Below, piece after piece: positions 4,306 to 35,986 of a DNA stretch of 64,000 nt. Source of the DNA: a virus; the IMG/VR virus record IMGVR_UViG_3300044638_007100; one strand, written 5' to 3'. Within the stretch, counting starts at the first letter, position 1. Every line of letters begins with the position of its first letter. The notes beneath the pieces were generated by a model. That model did no database searches. It was not told the DNA's origin and was given only the letters and a program-made list of their open reading frames with translations. The position numbers and the translations under genes were made by a program.

Positions 4306-4514
4306 CAATTGTCCAAAAGTTTCCTTAAGGGTTGGACTATATCTTCACCTATTAAAGGTGCTGGGCGCTCTTGCCTGTTATTAAGGGAACTGTATCCCTC
4401 AGGTAGTCTCTGAACCTTTCCTAGATGTATCTAGGACTTGGATGCTGATTGCCATATCCATAAAGGACTTAGGTTTCCAGCAGTTCACCCAGTTTAACGT
4501 GACCCGCTCTGTCA
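4306..4514 (-). ncRNA. ORF-less group I intron (209 nt) in psbA
   Basis: 5' exon ends in U (GCT), intron ends in G. P1: exon CGTGGCT pairs with GGTCACG, U-G at the splice site. P10: GAGC/GCTC. P3: CTGGG/CCCAG. R element TCAGAGACTAC; S element AAGATATAGTCC. Removal restores YNIVA-AHGYFG. Confidence 0.93.
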
Positions 4515-5267
4515 AGCCACGATGTTATAAGTCTCTTCTTCTTGTCCGAACTTATAACCATAATTCTGCGATTCAGTTTCAGTAGTTTCACGAACCAGTG
4601 AAGAAGTCACTAGTGAACCGTGCATAGCACTGAAGAGTGAACCACCGAACACACCAGCAACTCCAAGCATATGGAATGGGTGCATAAGGATATTGTGTTC
4701 TGCCTGGAACACAAGCATATAGTTGAAGGTTCCAGAAATACCCAGAGGCATCGCATCAGAGAAAGAACCTTGACCGAAAGGATAGACCAGGAACACGGCA
4801 GAAGCAGCAGCAACAGGAGCACTGTAAGCAACCATAATCCAAGGACGCATACCTAGACGGTAGGAGAGTTCCCATTCACGACCCATATAGCAGTAGATGC
4901 CGATAAGGAAGTGGAACACAATCAGTTGGAAAGGTCCACCATTATAAAGCCATTCATCAAGACTTGCTGCTTCCCAAATAGGATAGAAGTGAAGTCCGAT
5001 AGCATTAGAAGAAGGAACAACGGCACCAGAGATGATGTTGTTTCCATACATTAGAGAACCAGCAACAGGTTCACGAATACCGTCAATGTCTACTGGTGGA
5101 GCTGCAATAAATGCCACGATGAAGCAAATAGTAGCAGCAAGTAGTGTCGGAATCATAAGAGTTCCGAACCACCCAACATAAAGACGGTTGTCGGTAGAAG
5201 TAACCCACTGGCAAAAAGATTCCCAGAGGTTTTCGCCAGAACGGCGTGAAGCAATTGTAGCAGTCAT
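4515..5267 (-). CDS. psbA: Photosystem II D1 protein, exon 1
   Basis: 251 aa of D1 ([15 protein letters not shown]...[10 protein letters not shown]). Confidence 0.97.
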
Positions 5268-5430
5268 TTGTTAAAAAGGGTAAGTAAAAATTCAGGGGGA
5301 ACTGAACGGTACAGATATTCCTACACCACCCTCCAGTGTAGGTATGAGAGACTATGTTTAACCTCCCCATAGGTCTCGGTTAGGTAGAGGACAACATTAA
5401 GAATCTGTTACATTTCTTAACTTGTTGTTG

Positions 5431-25330: not shown

Positions 25331-25339
25331 TAGGTTTTT

Positions 25340-25415
25340 CATGCACGCCACCAATTCTTTGACTGGAAATTGGAAACCAGGCGGGAGAGAGTCCCATCCG
25401 CACCAGTCGTCACTT
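25340..25415 (-). ncRNA. wcaG-like cyanophage RNA motif
   Basis: UGGUGCGGAUGGG..CCCGCC, then a pseudoknot (CUGG/CCAG stem, loop CCAAUU pairing AAUUGG), then UGGCG; upstream of polysaccharide genes; identified from recollection of the motif, not a search. Confidence 0.65.
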
Positions 25416-25472
25416 ATAATGCCCATACGACGAGGGCAAATCAGGGTTCAAACTTGACTCCACCACTTGGTT

Positions 25473-26928: not shown

Positions 26929-27516
26929 TTATTGAACTGGTATTTGTTGTGGAGTTTCTTCAGGAACAATCATCGGCGTTTGTTCTGAATCTTCTACAGA
27001 TAATTTAGAATTTTTTTCAGTTATAGATCTAAGCATCCATACAAATTTACCATGAGATTCCATTAAATCTTGAAGTAAACTTTCGGTTGCATATGATCTT
27101 TGATTTCCTGCTTCCTCAGATGCTTCTGTTAAAAGTTCAATAAGAATCATATTATCAGTCATCAATCTTTTAACCATTTCATCAGATTTAACAACTGGTT
27201 TTCCTGGAACAATTTGCTTTTGTCCCAGTTCATCCATTTGAATAATATTAGAACCTTCGCCAATAGAAGAAACTTCAACAATTCTTGAAAGAGACCCAAT
27301 TGGACGAATATTCAAATATCTCATATGCTCAGATAAACGATCAATTTCTTCAAACATTGCTTCATATTGTTCTCCAAAAAGAGTATGAAGTTGTTGAAAA
27401 TCAGATCCAACAACATTCCAATGAAAAACCCATGTTTTATGAAACAAAATAAAAAGATTTGCCTGAATATCACTAATTAATTTGTATAATTTTTCCATTA
27501 TATCATACTTTTTCAA
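26929..27516 (-). CDS. dps: Dps (ferritin-like DNA starvation/stress protein)
   Basis: HKTWVFHWNVVGSDFQQLHTLFGEQY..IDRLSEH; HGKFVWML; TATAAATA upstream. Confidence 0.9.
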   Translation of the reverse strand: MKKYDIMEKLYKLISDIQANLFILFHKTWVFHWNVVGSDFQQLHTLFGEQYEAMFEEIDRLSEHMRYLNIRPIGSLSRIVEVSSIGEGSNIIQMDELGQKQIVPGKPVVKSDEMVKRLMTDNMILIELLTEASEEAGNQRSYATESLLQDLMESHGKFVWMLRSITEKNSKLSVEDSEQTPMIVPEETPQQIPVQ

Positions 27517-27749: not shown

Positions 27750-29276
27750 TCAGAAAGTGAACTTGGTCTGGATAATACCACCGAAGTTGGAAGAAGCACC
27801 AGTGAATGCCTGATTGTTAGAAACATAGAACACTGCAGGAGTGATCGAAATGTTGTCACTCACACGGTACTTGTAGAATGCTTCCCACATAAGGGCATCC
27901 TTAGAAAGACCAGCAGCATTGCCAGGTTGACCGATAGCAAAACCAGCACCGTTACCCTTAGCAAATACATCACTCCACTGAAGACCAGCGAACCAACTTT
28001 GCGAATCAGTAGCAGCATTAGGAGTTGCTTTTCCAAGAGCATTCCGACTTACATTGTTCCAACCATAACCAGCACTCACAGAAGGAATGACGCCAGATTT
28101 GGAAGGTTGCCAGTAAGCACTGATACCATAACCATTAGAGGTTTGACCAGGAGCAAGAGCACCAGATCCACCAGCAACAGCGTTGAAGATGCGAACACGA
28201 GTTCCTTCAGTACCATAACGATAACCAAAGGCAGCACCCCACTGAGGAGCACGATAACCAATCTGTGCCAGAGTATTCAGACCACCAGATTGGTTGAACT
28301 CACCTCTGTTGGATTCAGAACCATTCTGAGCAACATAGTTTACACCAGCAACAAGTCCACCTTTCTTTCCAGGTTGAACATACTGAAGACCAAAACCAGA
28401 TCCAGTTGCCTTGTTATAGACACCAGGAGCACCGGCAAGTTGGAAGAAGTCCAGAACATCCGACTTATATGCCGAAGGAATCCATGACATCTCAGTGTTA
28501 CGAACCAGAGCACCAGCAGTAGCAGTCATGCCCTTAGTAAGAACAGGGAACTGGTAATACAGACGATCCAACCACACGTTGCTGGAAGTTCCAGTACCTT
28601 GAGAAGTTTCTGCCTTATCCAGTTTGAAGAGGGAGTTGGAAGAACCGAAAGGTTGAGCAGAGAAATTACCCGAACGAAGGCGAGTACGAAGTAGATCTTT
28701 ACCAGTGAACGATGTATCAAAGTTCAGACGAAGATCATAGTTGAATGCAGTATTACCAACATTCGTGCTGGGAGCATTACGAGTAGCACCAGGAGTCTGA
28801 GCACCACCAACACCACCAAGAACAAAGTTTGCTTCACCACGAAGTTTGGTAGTGGTGGAGAACTGAGTTGCTTCCAGGCGACCAACTTGTGTTTCCAGTT
28901 TGGTTACACGACCACGAATAACTGCAAGTTCAGCACCAAATTCTTTCATAAGGCGTTGAAGTTCGTCGGTAACTTCCGTCACACGATCCAGGCAGGCGTT
29001 CAGCAGTGCTGCTGCCTCATAACGGGTCATTGATTGACCACCAGCATAAGTGCCGTTAGGGTAACCGGCAACACAACCGTAACGCTCTACAAGGGAGGAG
29101 AGTGCCCCGTATGCCCAATCAGTAGACTTTACATCGGAGAATTGTGAAACGCTTGTAACCTGTTCCGAAGTGGAATATTGGTTGACTGCTGCAATATTAA
29201 GATCTGCCGCATTCGCAGCAACAGGAGCAACCATTCCCAGAGCAACAGGCGCAAGCATCAGTTGTTTGAGTTTCAT
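27750..29276 (-). CDS. Cyanobacterial outer-membrane porin (SLH domain + OprB/Som type)
   Basis: Signal peptide; FSDVKSTDWAY..LVERYGC..MTRYEAAALL SLH; FSTTTKLRG; terminal Phe. Confidence 0.92.
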   Translation of the reverse strand: MKLKQLMLAPVALGMVAPVAANAADLNIAAVNQYSTSEQVTSVSQFSDVKSTDWAYGALSSLVERYGCVAGYPNGTYAGGQSMTRYEAAALLNACLDRVTEVTDELQRLMKEFGAELAVIRGRVTKLETQVGRLEATQFSTTTKLRGEANFVLGGVGGAQTPGATRNAPSTNVGNTAFNYDLRLNFDTSFTGKDLLRTRLRSGNFSAQPFGSSNSLFKLDKAETSQGTGTSSNVWLDRLYYQFPVLTKGMTATAGALVRNTEMSWIPSAYKSDVLDFFQLAGAPGVYNKATGSGFGLQYVQPGKKGGLVAGVNYVAQNGSESNRGEFNQSGGLNTLAQIGYRAPQWGAAFGYRYGTEGTRVRIFNAVAGGSGALAPGQTSNGYGISAYWQPSKSGVIPSVSAGYGWNNVSRNALGKATPNAATDSQSWFAGLQWSDVFAKGNGAGFAIGQPGNAAGLSKDALMWEAFYKYRVSDNISITPAVFYVSNNQAFTGASSNFGGIIQTKFTF

Positions 29277-29334
29277 AAATTTGTTAAGTTTTACAACTAC
29301 AGTGTTTATTTATGCTCCTGTTATTTTTGGAGCA

Positions 29335-29406
29335 AGCGGATGATCGGATTCGAACCGACGACAAACTGCTTGGAAGGCAGCCATTCTACCACTGAATTAC
29401 ATCCGC
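29335..29406 (-). tRNA. tRNA-Gly(UCC)
   Basis: Cloverleaf; loop CTTCCAA. Confidence 0.9.
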
Positions 29407-29410
29407 ATTA

Positions 29411-29456
29411 CTAGATGATTTTGTTGCATAACCTGCGGTAATTGCTGAATCATCTA
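29411..29456 (-). repeat. CAGCAA stem element 1
   Basis: TAGATGATT-CAGCAA-loop-AATCATCTA. Confidence 0.8.
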
Positions 29457-29457
29457 A

Positions 29458-29575
29458 CGCCGAAGTCGGGAATTGAACCCGAACTTTTCCCTGACAATGG
29501 AATTTAGAGTAATTGCTGTCCGTATCTAAAACTAGATAACTGCTTTTTAACGTGCTACCGTTACACTACTTCGGC
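29458..29575 (-). ncRNA. tRNA body with a 47-nt CAGCAA insert (29502-29548) in the anticodon stem
   Basis: Acceptor GCCGAAG/CTTCGGC; D arm; T arm TCGGG-TTCAATT-CCCGA; deleting the insert restores TTTCC-ATTGTCA-GGGAA. Confidence 0.75.
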
Positions 29576-29579
29576 ATTA

Positions 29580-29644
29580 CTAGATAGTTTTTATTTTTCG
29601 GATAAAAATTTGGCGAAAAAGTTTTAAATTGCTGAACTATCTAA
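29580..29644 (-). repeat. CAGCAA stem element 3
   Basis: TAGATAGTT-CAGCAA-loop-AACTATCTA. Confidence 0.8.
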
Positions 29645-29646
29645 AG

Positions 29647-29759
29647 TGGGGAAGGTAAGATTCGAACTTACGACCAACGGCTCCCAATGCATTTTAATTG
29701 CTGTTAACATCTTAACAAGATGTATTTTTTCGTTGCTCTACCAACTGAGCTACTTCCCC
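29647..29759 (-). ncRNA. tRNA-Pro(UGG)-like body with a 40-nt CAGCAA insert (29691-29730)
   Basis: Acceptor GGGGAAG/CTTCCCC-A; deleting the insert restores ACGGC-ATTGGGA-GCCGT. Confidence 0.8.
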
Positions 29760-29766
29760 ATTAGAA

Positions 29767-29847
29767 CGAGATTATTTGAGATAAGGGATCGAACCTTAAC
29801 CATCTATGCAGATAGTTTCAACCAGAAGGGTTTGCTGAATAATCTCT
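29767..29847 (-). ncRNA. tRNA mimic closed by a CAGCAA stem
   Basis: GAGATTATT-CAGCAA...AATAATCTC enclosing a D-like arm, ACTATC/GATGGT hairpin and T arm TAAGG-TTCGATC-CCTTA. Confidence 0.7.
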
Positions 29848-29880
29848 AAAGGTGGAGAGGGTTATACCCTCTCCGATGAA

Positions 29881-31344
29881 TCAGGAGAATACTTCTCCCA
29901 CCGCATCATAACGTTCATTATACACGGTTTCGTTCATAGTGTCAATAGGAGTAATGACACTATCGGTTAGAACAGACTTCAGAATAGAAGAACTGCAACC
30001 GGATACCAGACAAGTGCCAGTATCGTGTGCCTTAATAGGTACATTACCATAAGAGTTCACATTCCAAAAAACCAGTTGAGGCATTTCATACCCTGCCTTA
30101 CGGTAGAGTTTTTGAATTTGCTCAAAATTGGTTCTCTTGTTGGAGCGGCAGCACTGGTCAAACTGCATGTCAGAGACAATGATCAGTTTTTGAGGCATAT
30201 CCTCCGCAGGAACATTATTCTTTACTCCAGCATCCAGAACAGTTTTGAATACTGCCATCAGGTCGGTATTCATCTGCCAAGCAGCACGAGAAAGATTCTC
30301 AACCCGCTTACCGATGGTAGAACCAACGATGGATTGAAGTTCAGGTTGTGCAGAGAAAGTCAGGAACTTGTTCTTCCAAACTTGAGCAGTATTACGCTCT
30401 GCAATATACATCGCAAGAGAGATAGACACTGCCATAGGGCGACCCATCATAGATCCAGAAACGTCTGCAACTACCAGACCGTTAAACTCTTTACCTTCCA
30501 TGTAGTTAGGAAGTGCTTCCCACTGCAGGTCAATGGTTTTGTCGTTACGAGCACCCTTGTAGAGATACTGTTCAACAATATCATATGGATAGAGAGTTGC
30601 TGCATTGATCTTTGCTTCACCCTTCTCAACGGCACTGAGATAATCAGCATACCGAGTTGCATCTTGCTTTGCGAATGCTTTGCGATACATGAAAGCAGCA
30701 CGGGAAGGCAGTTTGGAATAATCAATTACAGACCATTCCTTAGAGCACATTGCCTTTTCAACAACGTTAATGTGAGTACGAAGATTGCTGAGAACCTTAC
30801 GATACTCGCGCTCAGTCATGCCAAGATGTGCGGCAATCTTACGACCTAGACGCTTGCTATCTTTGCTAGAAGCATTGATAGAAGGCATCCATTTGGCAAG
30901 CAGAGATACTGGTGCGCCTGCTTTGAAGGAAACACGATCCAGATTCATTTGATTCTGAATTGCATTCAGCACAGTTTCCCAGGCAGAAGTGTTTTCCAGA
31001 ACAAGAAGGTCATCCCAACGTCCATATACAGGAACCAGAGAAACCAGTTTTTCACCAATTTCACCATTATCTTCTACCAGATATTTGAAGAGGTTACGGA
31101 AAACTTCACGCTCACCTTGTCCCCCACGAATATCCCGTGCCCAGAAGAGAATACGAGTAGCAGTCTCAGGATTCTCCGCATATGCATGGGCAAAAAGTTT
31201 TTGTGCTTGCTTGACATCATTACGGCAAGCAGCGATTTTTCCGAAAAGATCCAGACACTTATTCAGAGTGGATTTGTATGCTTTTGCACCGTTCAGAGTT
31301 TCGGTGACATTCATTTCGGATTCAAGAGCATTCATAAAAGTCAT
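29881..31344 (-). CDS. DUF2828 family TROVE/Ro60-like protein with C-terminal vWA domain
   Basis: STLNKCLDLF; FWARDIRGGQGER; YGRWDDL; LAKWMPS; ADVSGSM (MIDAS); TD; VSDMQFD; VFWNV. Confidence 0.85.
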   Translation of the reverse strand: MTFMNALESEMNVTETLNGAKAYKSTLNKCLDLFGKIAACRNDVKQAQKLFAHAYAENPETATRILFWARDIRGGQGEREVFRNLFKYLVEDNGEIGEKLVSLVPVYGRWDDLLVLENTSAWETVLNAIQNQMNLDRVSFKAGAPVSLLAKWMPSINASSKDSKRLGRKIAAHLGMTEREYRKVLSNLRTHINVVEKAMCSKEWSVIDYSKLPSRAAFMYRKAFAKQDATRYADYLSAVEKGEAKINAATLYPYDIVEQYLYKGARNDKTIDLQWEALPNYMEGKEFNGLVVADVSGSMMGRPMAVSISLAMYIAERNTAQVWKNKFLTFSAQPELQSIVGSTIGKRVENLSRAAWQMNTDLMAVFKTVLDAGVKNNVPAEDMPQKLIIVSDMQFDQCCRSNKRTNFEQIQKLYRKAGYEMPQLVFWNVNSYGNVPIKAHDTGTCLVSGCSSSILKSVLTDSVITPIDTMNETVYNERYDAVGEVFS

Positions 31345-31355
31345 AATTTTTCTCC

Positions 31356-31410
31356 AAGTTGATGTTTAGTTGTTTTTCAGATACAATTAGGTTGATTGCT
31401 GAATCAACTT
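31356..31410 (-). repeat. CAGCAA stem element 6 in the DUF2828 5' UTR
   Basis: AAGTTGAT-T-CAGCAA-loop-ATCAACTT followed directly by GGAG and the ATG. Confidence 0.8.
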
Positions 31411-31418
31411 TGTTGAGC

Positions 31419-31479
31419 AAGATGAGTTTTTTGCTTGTTAGATTAAGAGTCTAGTGCAGTTTTTTTGCTGCCTCATCTT
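31419..31479 (-). repeat. CAGCAA stem element 7
   Basis: AAGATGAG-G-CAGCAA-loop-CTCATCTT. Confidence 0.8.
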
Positions 31480-31497
31480 AGAACACCCGAAGGTGTA

Positions 31498-31656: not shown

Positions 31657-32127
31657 TCAACCGATTACATATTCTTTCCATTCTGAAACACGACTCTTTT
31701 GAAGATCCAAATAAACACGGTTGAAAGGTGCTTCTGGATTTTTCTTCAAAATCATATTTGTTTCGGAAAGAAAATGATTTCCTTTCTTTAAGTTACATTT
31801 GGTGCAACAGGCAACTAGATTTTCCCATGTGTCCTGTCCACCTCTTGAACGAGGAATCACATGGTCAATTGTAAGATCTTTCTTGGATCCACAGTATTGA
31901 CATTCATGATCATCCCTCTTGTAGATAAGTGCTCTTGTAGGATAAGAGTCTTTTCCACGATTAAAAGGAATTTTTACATAACTGACTAAACGAATCACAC
32001 GCTTAGTAATAAGTCTTGCTTTGTCCTTGAAAAGAAGAACAATTGCTCTTTTCCAGTTTGTAAAATGTAATGGTTCATAAGAACTGTTTAGAACCAGTAT
32101 TGTACTATGTGGTTCTATGGATTCCAT
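31657..32127 (-). CDS. HNH endonuclease (McrA-like)
   Basis: LVLNSSYEPL; CQYCG..LTIDHVIPRSRGG..WENLVACCTKCNLKKGN. Confidence 0.9.
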   Translation of the reverse strand: MESIEPHSTILVLNSSYEPLHFTNWKRAIVLLFKDKARLITKRVIRLVSYVKIPFNRGKDSYPTRALIYKRDDHECQYCGSKKDLTIDHVIPRSRGGQDTWENLVACCTKCNLKKGNHFLSETNMILKKNPEAPFNRVYLDLQKSRVSEWKEYVIG

Positions 32128-33863: not shown

Positions 33864-33867
33864 AGGT

Positions 33868-33959
33868 TTGAGAGAAGATGGAATCGAACCACCATTGCCA
33901 AGGGACGGAATCGAACCGCCTCTAACACCGTCGTGCTCACCACCAAGGTGCTCTCTCAA
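33868..33959 (-). ncRNA. tRNA-like element with two T-arms and no anticodon loop
   Basis: TTGAGAGA/TCTCTCAA closing stem; GGCGG-TTCGATT-CCGTC and GGTGG-TTCGATT-CCATC. Confidence 0.65.
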
Positions 33960-35838: not shown

Positions 35839-35844
35839 GTAAAC

Positions 35845-35896
35845 TAGATGATTGTTTTTTCTACCAAAAAGAAAGTAAGAATTGCTGAATCATCTA
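35845..35896 (-). repeat. CAGCAA stem element 8
   Basis: TAGATGATT-CAGCAA-loop-AATCATCTA; stem identical to element 1. Confidence 0.8.
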
Positions 35897-35897
35897 A

Positions 35898-35986
35898 TGG
35901 GAGAAGAGGGAATTGAACCCCCGAGGCTAAAAAACCACTCCAGTTTTACAGACTGGTACTACGTTGCCAACAGTAGACATCCTCCC
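35898..35986 (-). tRNA. tRNA-Tyr(GUA)
   Basis: Loop CTGTAAA; long variable arm. Confidence 0.88.

What the first reader, a model, noticed from the sequence alone, without database searches (positions are those of the whole stretch)
29767..29847. tRNA mimic whose acceptor stem is replaced by the CAGCAA stem
Seen immediately downstream of DUF2828: the CAGCAA stem encloses a D-like arm (TTC-TGGTT-GAA), a hairpin (ACTATC-TGCATA-GATGGT) and a canonical T arm (TAAGG-TTCGATC-CCTTA). There is no CCA-bearing acceptor. This is a third architecture for the motif. It parallels bacterial YrlA RNAs (Ro-binding stem plus tRNA-like elbow) but in a different permutation.
Basis: partly seen in the sequence, partly recalled or inferred. 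Interest (0 to 1): 0.72.

Follow-up and report, generated by a model that had tools for sequence, protein, structure and literature searches.

The report
Y-RNA-like tRNA mimic beside phage Ro60-like gene
This 79-base stretch of a freshwater cyanophage is most likely a small structured RNA that partly mimics a tRNA and partners the Ro60-like protein encoded just upstream; the same protein-RNA pairing recurs in very different phages, but it has been described only for a few and with a different binding motif.

Summary
On the minus strand at 29846-29768, a 9-bp terminal stem is followed by unpaired CAGCAA. It encloses a GG-containing linker, a hairpin and a canonical T-arm. No tRNA finder calls it.

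It is one of six stand-alone "CAGCAA-handle" elements in the window, all on the strand of the DUF2828/DUF7788 gene. The stem and T-stem covary in related phages. The D-like stem and the central hairpin are not conserved; only the GG, the T-arm and the handle are.

The neighbouring protein has the full Ro60 fold (Z 23.4, 410 residues aligned). Handle RNAs sit beside its homologues in 54 of 80 protein-ascertained phage loci, against about 9 by chance. Some of these carry whole tRNA bodies or YrlA-type permuted tRNA modules.

Best reading: a Y-RNA-like partner of a Ro60-like protein, presenting a tRNA-elbow mimic. Binding is inferred, not shown.

The handle also resembles the Dictyostelium Class I RNA motif. 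A homologue of the protein, Bas63 gp130, counters the Ppl defence.

This scan has already noted the same system on at least 27 other genomes, so this element is a new variant of a known kind, not a new discovery.

The parts
29768..29846 (-). E1: the stem-closed small RNA under study (handle plus tRNA-elbow mimic)
   Evidence: Sequence read; fold. Covariance model R1 scores it 66 bits, but it is a seed sequence, so this is by construction. Orthologues with the same stem occur in L003, L002, L004/L012/L106 and L138.
29838..29846 (-). 5' arm of the terminal stem (GAGAUUAUU)
   Evidence: Pairs with 29776-29768. Three of the 9 pairs show changes on both sides among six copies; 8 of 9 do so among 35 distinct matches.
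29832..29837 (-). Invariant single-stranded CAGCAA (the 'handle' motif)
   Evidence: Invariant in alignments A2 and A3. Unpaired in the MFE fold. Present beside DUF2828 genes across phages.
29817..29831 (-).
   Evidence: All six orthologue copies keep a GG at 9-12 nt after CAGCAA; it falls 7-12 nt after CAGCAA in the wider set. The TTC/GAA helix is absent from the MFE fold and is not conserved.
29799..29816 (-). Central hairpin, in the position of an anticodon arm
   Evidence: Found in the MFE fold. Hairpins of unrelated sequence occupy this place in L138, L134, L019 and L168. Absent in L002 and L004.
29782..29798 (-). T-arm (5-bp stem, loop UUCGAUC)
   Evidence: The T-loop is conserved in L002, L004, L010, L013 and L134. 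Three of the 5 stem pairs covary; 4 of 5 do so in the wider set.
29768..29776 (-). 3' arm of the terminal stem
29881..31344 (-). DUF2828 + DUF7788 protein, Ro60-like (helical ring plus vWA domain with a MIDAS motif)
   Evidence: Pfam match. AF2 model with pLDDT 94.9. Foldseek's top 12 hits are all Ro60/TROVE. VIA-align gives Z 23.4 over 410 residues.
29917..29945 (-). Perfect sigma-70 consensus promoter (TTGACA-17-TATAAT) inside the 3' end of the ORF, about 70 nt upstream of E1
   Evidence: 12 of 12 matches. Relatives carry a TTGACA...TAAGAT promoter in the equivalent intergenic hairpin.
29854..29874 (-). G+C-rich hairpin between the stop codon and E1, with no U-run
29408..29460 (-). Sibling handle RNA (simple hairpin)
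   Evidence: 28.9 bits.
29577..29647 (-). Sibling handle RNA (simple hairpin)
   Evidence: 26.9 bits.
31352..31483 (-). Two sibling handle elements in the leader of the DUF2828 gene
   Evidence: 30.6 and 20.1 bits.
35841..35900 (-). Sibling handle RNA between tRNA-Tyr and tRNA-Met
   Evidence: 29 bits.

Best explanation
E1 is a small non-coding RNA of a family that I call CAGCAA-handle RNAs. These are the Y-RNA-like partners of a Ro60-like protein clade (DUF2828/DUF7788).

Proposed steps:
1. E1 is transcribed with the downstream tRNA array. The transcript starts either at the consensus promoter inside the end of the ORF or as read-through of the DUF2828 mRNA.
2. E1 is freed by tRNA-processing cuts on its flanks.
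3. It folds into a 9-bp terminal stem with CAGCAA left single-stranded beside the 5' arm.
4. This handle is the docking site for the Ro60-like ring, as the 5' strand of the Y RNA stem is for Ro60.
5. The variable 'cargo' of E1 is a T-arm plus a GG linker, with an optional hairpin in the anticodon-arm position. Together these imitate the tRNA elbow.
6. The RNA could therefore tether the ring to an enzyme that recognises tRNA shape, or act as a decoy for one. The likely setting is tRNA damage, repair or counter-defence during infection.

What is shown: the RNA structure with its covariation, the strand-specific linkage to the gene, and the Ro60 fold of the protein.
What is inferred: excision as a discrete RNA, binding to the protein, and the role of the tRNA mimicry.
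For: RNA structure
- The stem and T-arm are 94% paired. Six of 14 pairs change on both sides in six copies, and 0 of 500 shuffles reach that score.
- In 35 distinct model matches, 12 of 14 pairs change on both sides. G-U pairs are present, which favours RNA over DNA.

Strand and linkage
- All 49 matches of model R1 in 750 kb lie on the DUF2828 gene strand.
- Among 80 loci fetched by protein alone, an 8-bp stem plus CAGCAA occurs in 54 loci (105 hits) on the gene strand. The opposite strand has 9 hits, shuffles 9.2, and control hexamers 7-14.
- Conversely, 23 of 118 loci fetched by an RNA pattern alone hold a DUF2828 homologue. Most are 31-41% identical to the window protein.

Protein
- The AF2 model has pLDDT 94.9.
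- Ro60 structures fill the top ten matches, with Z 23.4-12.6 over the full length. The next tier (Z about 10) matches only the vWA domain.
- The MIDAS residues D294, S296 and S298 are invariant.

Known precedent
- Mycobacteriophage JoeDirt encodes a 'Ro-like RNA binding protein' that is 39% identical to the window protein. It is followed by three CAGCAA-handle RNAs.
- One of these matches Rfam YrlA over the full model (39.8 bits).

Promoter and transcription
- A perfect promoter lies upstream of E1.
- Contigs from four lake metatranscriptome libraries run from the ORF through E1 and stop at the borders of the flanking tRNAs. This is only a weak hint.
Against: - No binding data exist for any member of this family, and no raw reads show discrete ends for E1. 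The contigs may include DNA, and they show E1 joined to the mRNA.
- Bas63 gp130 (35% identical) countered Ppl when expressed alone from a plasmid, without phage RNAs (PMC11482910). The protein can therefore act without phage-encoded partners in at least one assay.
- L002 encodes a 99% identical protein, yet its E1 copy lacks the hairpin and the D-like part. L138 has A in place of U at the first T-loop position. The tRNA-like cargo is thus evolving fast.
- Many loci counted are close relatives from one sample, so the 54 of 80 are not independent.
- E1 does not match Rfam YrlA or tRNA.
Confidence: 0.6

Rival explanations
1. The elements are cis-acting processing or stability signals of the tRNA array and the DUF2828 mRNA, for example entry sites for a ribonuclease or protective stems. 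They are not free RNAs with a protein partner.
For: They fill nearly every spacer between tRNAs here and lie flush with the tRNA ends. Two abut the ribosome-binding site of the DUF2828 gene. Metatranscriptome contigs show E1 continuous with the ORF.
Against: JoeDirt has three handle RNAs with no annotated tRNA in the 6.4-kb stretch examined. The single-stranded hexamer is invariant while the stems vary freely. Linkage to one protein family holds across phages of many host phyla. Cargo modules imitate tRNA parts, which a cleavage signal does not need.
Confidence: 0.15
2. The handle is functional, but the T-arm, GG and hairpin of E1 are a decaying remnant of a tRNA that was once enclosed by the stem. 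They have no role of their own.
For: The cargo differs sharply between near-identical phages (window against L002). The D-like stem is not conserved. L138 has a non-canonical T-loop. Other phages enclose complete tRNA bodies that still score as tRNA (L093 50.9 bits, L026 45.9 bits), which would be the starting point of such decay.
Against: The T-arm persists with compensatory stem changes in at least six lineages, and the GG persists at a similar distance. E1 is not a recent copy of any tRNA in the window; only the T-loop matches.
Confidence: 0.15
3. The CAGCAA handle is read by some other protein, and the gene linkage reflects a shared pathway, not direct contact. Candidates include an RRM protein, as reported for Dictyostelium Class I RNA, or a host or phage nuclease or ligase.
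For: The only direct binder reported for the look-alike Class I RNA is the RRM protein CIBP/Rnp1A (PMC7919456). Bas63 gp130 works without phage RNAs.
Against: No other gene is consistently linked in the loci examined. The Ro60 fold has a documented habit of binding stem-plus-5'-strand RNAs encoded next to it (PMC4201824).
Confidence: 0.1

Closest known systems
Bacterial and phage Y RNAs of the YrlA type with Ro60/Rsr (Rfam RF02553; Chen et al. 2014, PMC4201824)
   Same: - A small RNA is encoded beside, and on the strand of, a Ro60-fold protein.
- The terminal stem is formed by the two ends, with a short conserved motif on the 5' side.
- The cargo is a tRNA-like module with a canonical T-arm.
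- Several paralogous RNAs occur per locus.
- The mycobacteriophage 'Ro-like' proteins are homologues of the window protein (39% identity), and their YrlA-like RNA carries the CAGCAA handle.
   Different: - The motif is CAGCAA, not GNCGAAN0-1G.
- The protein matches Pfam DUF2828/DUF7788, not TROVE.
- E1 keeps the tRNA order (GG, hairpin, T-arm) instead of T-arm, hairpin, D-arm.
- E1 has no real D-arm.
- Rfam YrlA does not match it.
Deinococcus radiodurans Yrn1
   Same: According to Chen et al., Yrn1 differs from YrlA in the order of its D and T arms, and the intervening stem-loop takes the anticodon-arm position. That is the layout seen in E1.
   Different: The comparison rests on the paper's text only; I made no sequence or model comparison here. 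Yrn1 partners a TROVE-type Rsr and tethers it to PNPase.
Dictyostelium Class I RNAs (Rfam RF01414; Kjellin et al. 2021, PMC7919456)
   Same: - A short stem joins the 5' and 3' ends.
- An unpaired conserved motif ending in CAGCAA lies directly after the 5' arm.
- The interior is variable and the length is about 60 nt.
- The 3' tail is CUGU-like.
- RF01414 matches handle RNAs of distant DUF2828 phages over the full model at 27.9-29.3 bits.
   Different: - Those matches are below the Rfam threshold of 41.5 bits.
- RF01414 does not match E1 or its window siblings.
- The cyanophage copies lack the CUUA part of the 11-nt motif.
- Class I RNAs are eukaryotic, have their own upstream promoter element (DUSE) and were reported as unique to dictyostelids.
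- Their reported direct binder is an RRM protein.
Bas63 (Escherichia phage JohannRWettstein) gp130, which counters the Ppl defence (PhageMaP preprint, PMC11482910)
   Same: It is a full-length homologue of the window protein (35% identity, E 3e-92). It is encoded directly upstream of the tRNA array. The authors noted its Ro60-like structure and guessed that some neighbouring 'tRNA genes' might be Y RNAs.
   Different: The phenotype comes from a coliphage and a defence system of E. coli. No RNA partner was identified, and the protein alone sufficed in their assay.

Membership tests
Y RNA, YrlA type (RF02553) | Encoded within about 4 kb of, and on the same strand as, a Ro60 orthologue | tested here: met
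   E1 starts 34 nt after the stop codon of a protein with the Ro60 fold (Z 23.4 over 410 residues). By sequence the protein is DUF2828/DUF7788, not Pfam TROVE.
Y RNA, YrlA type (RF02553) | 5'-proximal motif GNCGAAN0-1G | tested here: not met
   The conserved motif here is CAGCAA. The YrlA motif definition comes from PMC4201824.
Y RNA, YrlA type (RF02553) | tRNA-like domain with both T-arm and D-arm, in the order T-arm, hairpin, D-arm | tested here: not met
   E1 has a T-arm but no conserved D-arm, and its order is GG, hairpin, T-arm. Other members of the handle family do have the YrlA layout.
Y RNA, YrlA type (RF02553) | Score at or above the Rfam gathering threshold (69 bits) | tested here: not met
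   No YrlA match over E1 at E up to 10.
Y RNA, YrlA type (RF02553) | Physical association with the Ro60 protein; tRNA-type modifications | not testable with these tools
   Needs pull-down or EMSA, and modification mapping.
tRNA (RF00005) | Cloverleaf with a 7-bp acceptor stem, a D-arm, an anticodon arm with a 7-nt loop, and a T-arm | tested here: not met
   Not called by ARAGORN or Rfam. There is no acceptor stem, the hairpin loop is 6 nt, and there is no variable region.
Dictyostelium Class I RNA (RF01414) | Terminal stem plus the 11-nt motif CCUUACAGCAA next to the 5' arm (near-invariant U3, C6, C9, A10, A11) | tested here: inconclusive
   The stem is present, and C6, C9, A10 and A11 are present. 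Position 3 is A, and the first five positions are base-paired in E1. Motif definition from PMC7919456.
Dictyostelium Class I RNA (RF01414) | Score at or above the Rfam gathering threshold (41.5 bits) | tested here: not met
   No match in 29300-29950 at E up to 10. Distant phage members reach 27.9-29.3 bits.
CAGCAA-handle RNAs beside DUF2828 genes (unnamed; defined here and in earlier notes of this scan) | 7-9-bp terminal stem with covariation, and invariant CAGCAA 0-2 nt after the 5' arm | tested here: met
CAGCAA-handle RNAs beside DUF2828 genes (unnamed; defined here and in earlier notes of this scan) | Same strand as, and close to, a DUF2828/DUF7788 gene | tested here: met
   E1 lies 34 nt downstream of the gene. 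Family-wide figures: 105 hits on the gene strand against 9 on the opposite strand, and 49 of 49 model matches on the gene strand.
Ro60 / TROVE proteins (for the neighbouring gene) | Helical-repeat ring followed by a vWA domain with a MIDAS motif | tested here: met
   Full-length structural match to 2i91, 1yvr, 1yvp, 9nf8, 9l5y and 2nvo. D294, S296 and S298 are invariant.
Ro60 / TROVE proteins (for the neighbouring gene) | Sequence-level match to TROVE or to solved Ro60 chains | tested here: not met
   Pfam gives only DUF2828 and DUF7788. Neither phmmer nor a profile search of PDB sequences finds Ro60.

The most novel reading that the evidence does not exclude
The CAGCAA handle may be the universal docking signal of a second, DUF2828-type branch of Ro60-like proteins, found in phages of many bacterial phyla and in eukaryotes.

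If so, the 'orphan' Class I RNAs of Dictyostelium, reported as unique to social amoebae, would be Y-like RNAs of this branch. The cargo modules would be interchangeable tRNA parts used as adaptors or decoys in conflicts over tRNA, such as counter-defence against systems like Ppl. Those modules include a T-arm elbow as in E1, anticodon-loop hairpins, and whole or permuted tRNA bodies.

[quoted passage not shown] I could not check whether it belongs to this family.
Probability: 0.3. Interest if true: 0.85.

Novelty: new variant of a known kind. Interest (0 to 1): 0.6.

Why it matters
Ro60 and its Y RNAs are a long-studied but poorly understood RNA-surveillance module.

This work links a large, unnamed protein family to a recognisable RNA handle. 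The family has 704 phage isolate records and thousands of metagenomic homologues.

That link has three consequences:
- Many unannotated 'spacers' in phage tRNA arrays could be annotated as partner RNAs.
- It would give a concrete RNA ligand to test for a protein already tied to counter-defence (Bas63 gp130).
- It offers a testable protein partner for the unexplained Class I RNAs of Dictyostelium.

E1 itself shows how little of a tRNA is retained in these RNAs: the T-arm and a GG.

Tried and rejected
- ARAGORN and Rfam (gathering threshold, and E up to 10) give nothing over E1. The weak YrlA hit of 17 bits lies on a neighbouring element.
- Sequence searches of the PDB, with the protein and with a 107-sequence profile, find no Ro60. 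Only the fold comparison does.
- No RF01414 or YrlA match reached the Rfam threshold in 30 DUF2828 loci.
- blastn-short of E1 against all 28 tRNAs of the window finds only the T-loop in common, so E1 is not a recent tRNA copy.
- The whole genome is not held for this window, so I could not ask whether copies occur outside it.
- The laid metatranscriptome data are contigs, so they cannot show RNA ends, strand or level. Gaps over the tRNA genes prove nothing on their own.
- A search for long homologues found eukaryotic members (Willaertia, fungi, a EukProt entry) but no Dictyostelium protein. Given the word filter, this is no evidence of absence.
- Avesson et al. 2011 and the supplements of Chen et al. 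2014 are not held. I therefore could not see which phages Chen et al. listed, or what DDB_G0281243 is.
- I ran no further search on a eukaryotic query, because crowding by fungal and plant homologues made success unlikely.
- I rejected a DNA-level reading (recombination site or miniature mobile element), because orientation is strictly tied to the gene strand and G-U pairs are tolerated.

Full report
**Context.** The window comes from a T4-like freshwater cyanophage. Its nearest isolates are Synechococcus phages B3 and B23, at about 72% nucleotide identity. Lake metagenomes hold the stretch. All features discussed lie on the minus strand, inside a large tRNA array: ARAGORN tRNAs, and Rfam adds two tRNAs that carry long inserts.

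**The observation.** Read on the minus strand, the region downstream of the 487-aa ORF (31344-29881) contains, in order:
- a G+C-rich hairpin (29874-29854);
- a 9-bp terminal stem, 29846-29838 pairing with 29776-29768;
- immediately after the 5' arm, the hexamer CAGCAA (29837-29832);
- a linker containing TGGTT;
- an 18-nt hairpin (29816-29799);
- a textbook T-arm (29798-29782, loop UUCGAUC);
- five unpaired bases before the 3' arm.

No CCA follows, and the next tRNA begins 8 nt later.

They are not chance:
- The T-arm core GGTTCRAWYCC occurs 23 times in the window against 0.27 expected, and 22 of those lie on the minus strand in the tRNA region.
- AGATNNNNCAGCAA occurs 6 times against 0.18 expected.
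- RNAfold recovers the terminal stem, the hairpin and the T-arm (-18.9 kcal/mol, z = -2.14).
- The fold does not form the proposed TTC/GAA 'D-like' stem.
- Neither ARAGORN nor the Rfam tRNA or YrlA models call the element.

**A family of elements.** A mechanical scan for a stem followed by CAGCAA found the same design in the other spacers of the window, and in phage B3 and 12 of the 13 related IMG/VR contigs fetched with the neighbouring protein. The stems differ by compensatory changes, while CAGCAA stays fixed.

I aligned six copies of the T-arm-bearing type: the window, L002, L004, L010, L013 and L134. With the terminal stem and T-stem as the named structure:
- 94% of cells are paired;
- 6 of 14 pairs change on both sides;
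- no shuffle out of 500 reaches the observed covariation;
- sliding the partners by one column drops pairing to 49-57%.

A covariance model built from this alignment (R1) found 49 matches in 750 kb of window plus protein-ascertained loci, every one on the strand of the DUF2828 gene. In the window it marks six stand-alone elements: 29764-29850, 29408-29460, 29577-29647, 31352-31414, 31415-31483 and 35841-35900. On the 35 distinct matches, 12 of 14 pairs change on both sides, and G-U pairs occur. That alignment is fitted to the model, so it leans towards the structure.

**What is and is not conserved in E1.** Orthologues with the same stem sequence exist in four other versions.
- L003 is identical to the window.
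- L002 and L004 keep the handle, a 14-nt linker with GG, and the T-arm. They lack both the 'D-like' part and the central hairpin, although the L002 protein is 99% identical.
- L138 keeps a GG linker, a central hairpin of unrelated sequence, and a T-arm whose loop begins with A instead of U.
- More distant phages (L134, L019, L168) share the layout CAGCAA, GG, hairpin, T-arm, 3' arm.

The conserved cargo is therefore the T-arm plus a GG at D-loop-like distance, the two partners of the tRNA elbow. The hairpin in the anticodon-arm position is optional. E1 is not a recent copy of any tRNA in the window.

**The wider family carries tRNA parts in several arrangements.** An IMG/VR scan for TTCAGCAA followed by a T-arm core, and the protein-ascertained loci, show three kinds of cargo on the same handle:
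- Complete tRNA bodies in tRNA order. These still score as tRNA with the acceptor missing (L093 50.9 bits, L026 45.9 bits over model positions 5-66, L029 30.1 bits).
- Permuted modules of the YrlA kind: T-arm, hairpin, D-arm (L125, L031, L064, L026, L128, L165). The L125 core matches Rfam YrlA positions 23-88 at 35.9 bits.
- Many short members whose cargo is a GG plus a hairpin with a 7-nt loop of anticodon-loop form.

**The neighbouring protein is Ro60-like.** Pfam sees DUF2828 and DUF7788, and sequence searches of the PDB find nothing relevant. An AlphaFold2 model built on 107 diverse homologues is confident (pLDDT 94.9, pTM 0.93).
- Foldseek's twelve best PDB matches are all Ro60/TROVE proteins: Xenopus, human, Deinococcus Rsr and Thermus phage phiLo.
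- VIA-align gives Z 23.4, rmsd 3.8 Å, over 410 residues spanning model residues 9-464. The next tier (Z about 10) covers only the vWA domain.
- The MIDAS residues are invariant.

**Linkage in both directions.**
- Of 80 IMG/VR loci fetched by protein similarity alone (39-89% identity), 54 carry at least one 8-bp stem plus CAGCAA on the gene strand. That makes 105 hits, against 9 on the other strand, 9.2 in shuffles and 7-14 for control hexamers.
- Most hits lie within a few hundred bases of the ORF.
- Many of these loci are near-duplicates from one sample, so the count overstates independence.
- Of 118 loci fetched by the RNA pattern alone, 23 hold a DUF2828 homologue in the few kb retrieved, most at 31-41% identity.

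**Relation to what is known.**
- tblastn finds the protein in 704 phage isolate records from many host genera. The mycobacteriophage copies are annotated 'Ro-like RNA binding protein'.
- In JoeDirt, the 360 nt after that gene hold three CAGCAA-handle RNAs. The middle one matches Rfam YrlA over the whole model at 39.8 bits, below the 69-bit threshold.
- Chen et al. 2014 reported YrlA-like RNAs beside Ro60 genes in 22 phages and defined the motif GNCGAAN0-1G. I could not see their phage list. The pairing of a phage Ro-like protein with a tRNA-like Y RNA is nonetheless already in print.
- What I found in no paper or Rfam family is the CAGCAA handle as the family signature, its spread, and the variety of cargo.
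- Rfam's Dictyostelium Class I RNA model (consensus: a 6-bp stem, then CUUACAGCAAU, then a variable part, then the 3' arm and UG) matches handle RNAs of distant DUF2828 phages over its full length at 27.9-29.3 bits, below its 41.5-bit threshold.
- Kjellin et al. describe exactly this anatomy and state that the class is unique to dictyostelids. Their preprint lists a protein of unknown function, DDB_G0281243, among four proteins pulled down with a Class I RNA.
- The DUF2828/DUF7788 architecture exists in eukaryotes: Willaertia, fungi and a EukProt entry. I could not test Dictyostelium.
- Bas63 gp130, shown to counter the Ppl defence and noted as Ro60-like, is a full-length homologue of the window protein (35% identity, E 3e-92). 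It worked when expressed alone, so phage RNAs are not needed for that effect.

**Transcription.**
- A perfect TTGACA-17-TATAAT promoter lies on the minus strand at 29945-29917, inside the end of the ORF and about 70 nt upstream of E1.
- Relatives have a promoter in the corresponding intergenic hairpin.
- Contigs from four lake metatranscriptome libraries, from four studies, cover the ORF and run through E1. Several end at 29409 and at 31480/31484, next to the 5' end of tRNA-Gly and the 3' end of tRNA-Val.
- This fits an RNA origin with processing at the tRNAs. However, contigs cannot show ends or strand, and DNA carry-over is not excluded.

**Mechanism and rivals.** The best-supported reading is a Y-RNA-like partner. 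The terminal stem with its single-stranded CAGCAA docks on the Ro60-like ring, and the cargo presents a tRNA-elbow mimic to a tRNA-shape-recognising factor, as tether or decoy.
- Shown: structure, conservation, strand and gene linkage, and the protein fold.
- Inferred: excision, binding and the role of the cargo.

The rivals are a pure processing or stability signal, a functional handle with decaying tRNA debris as cargo, and a handle read by some other protein. Each is weighed in its own section.

**Earlier notes.** Other notes of this scan describe the same system in this genome and in at least 27 other genomes. I reached the Ro60 fold, the gene linkage and the Class I resemblance from my own calls before reading the cross-genome notes. 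The Bas63 lead came from them, and I checked it.

Noticed in passing
window 29647-29759 (-) and 29458-29575 (-): Two tRNAs carry 40-60-nt inserts in the 5' strand of the anticodon stem. Each insert holds a circularly permuted handle: the 3' arm, a loop, the 5' arm, then CAGCAA. Removing 29730-29691 restores a perfect 5-bp anticodon stem with loop AUUGGGA, as in tRNA-Pro(UGG), which is otherwise missing from the array. Long 'tRNA' hits of 113-130 nt recur beside DUF2828 genes in distant phages.
   Followed up: partly
window 33865-33959 (-): A spacer between two tRNA-Ser genes holds two T-arm cores (GGTTCGATTCC at 33890-33880 and 33917-33907) but is not called as a tRNA. It may be another tRNA mimic.
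   Followed up: no
window 31352-31483 (-): Two handle elements sit in the leader of the DUF2828 gene. The 3' arm of the second runs into the GGAG ribosome-binding site, so autoregulation by the protein is conceivable.
   Followed up: no
window 27750-29276 (-): The phage encodes a 508-aa protein with an SLH domain and an OprB-type porin domain. This is a cyanobacterial outer-membrane porin architecture in a viral genome.
   Followed up: no
window 4313-4565, 5307-5402, 25337-25439 (-): Rfam calls a group I intron, a PhotoRC-II RNA and a wcaG RNA, all typical of cyanomyophages. An HNH endonuclease gene (31657-32127) sits inside the tRNA array, and a ferritin-like gene lies at 26929-27516.
   Followed up: no
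L191:724-1101, L176:8300-8896, L159:561-625, L188:6988-7152: Viral contigs that carry DUF2828 genes also hold a class B RNase P RNA (238 bits), a ROOL RNA (208 bits), a type II hammerhead, and a sub-threshold HEARO match.
   Followed up: no
P0271 (1148 aa, metagenomic): A DUF2828/DUF7788 protein is fused to a RecQ-type helicase (Pfam DEAD, Helicase_C, RecQ zinc-binding and HRDC domains).
   Followed up: no
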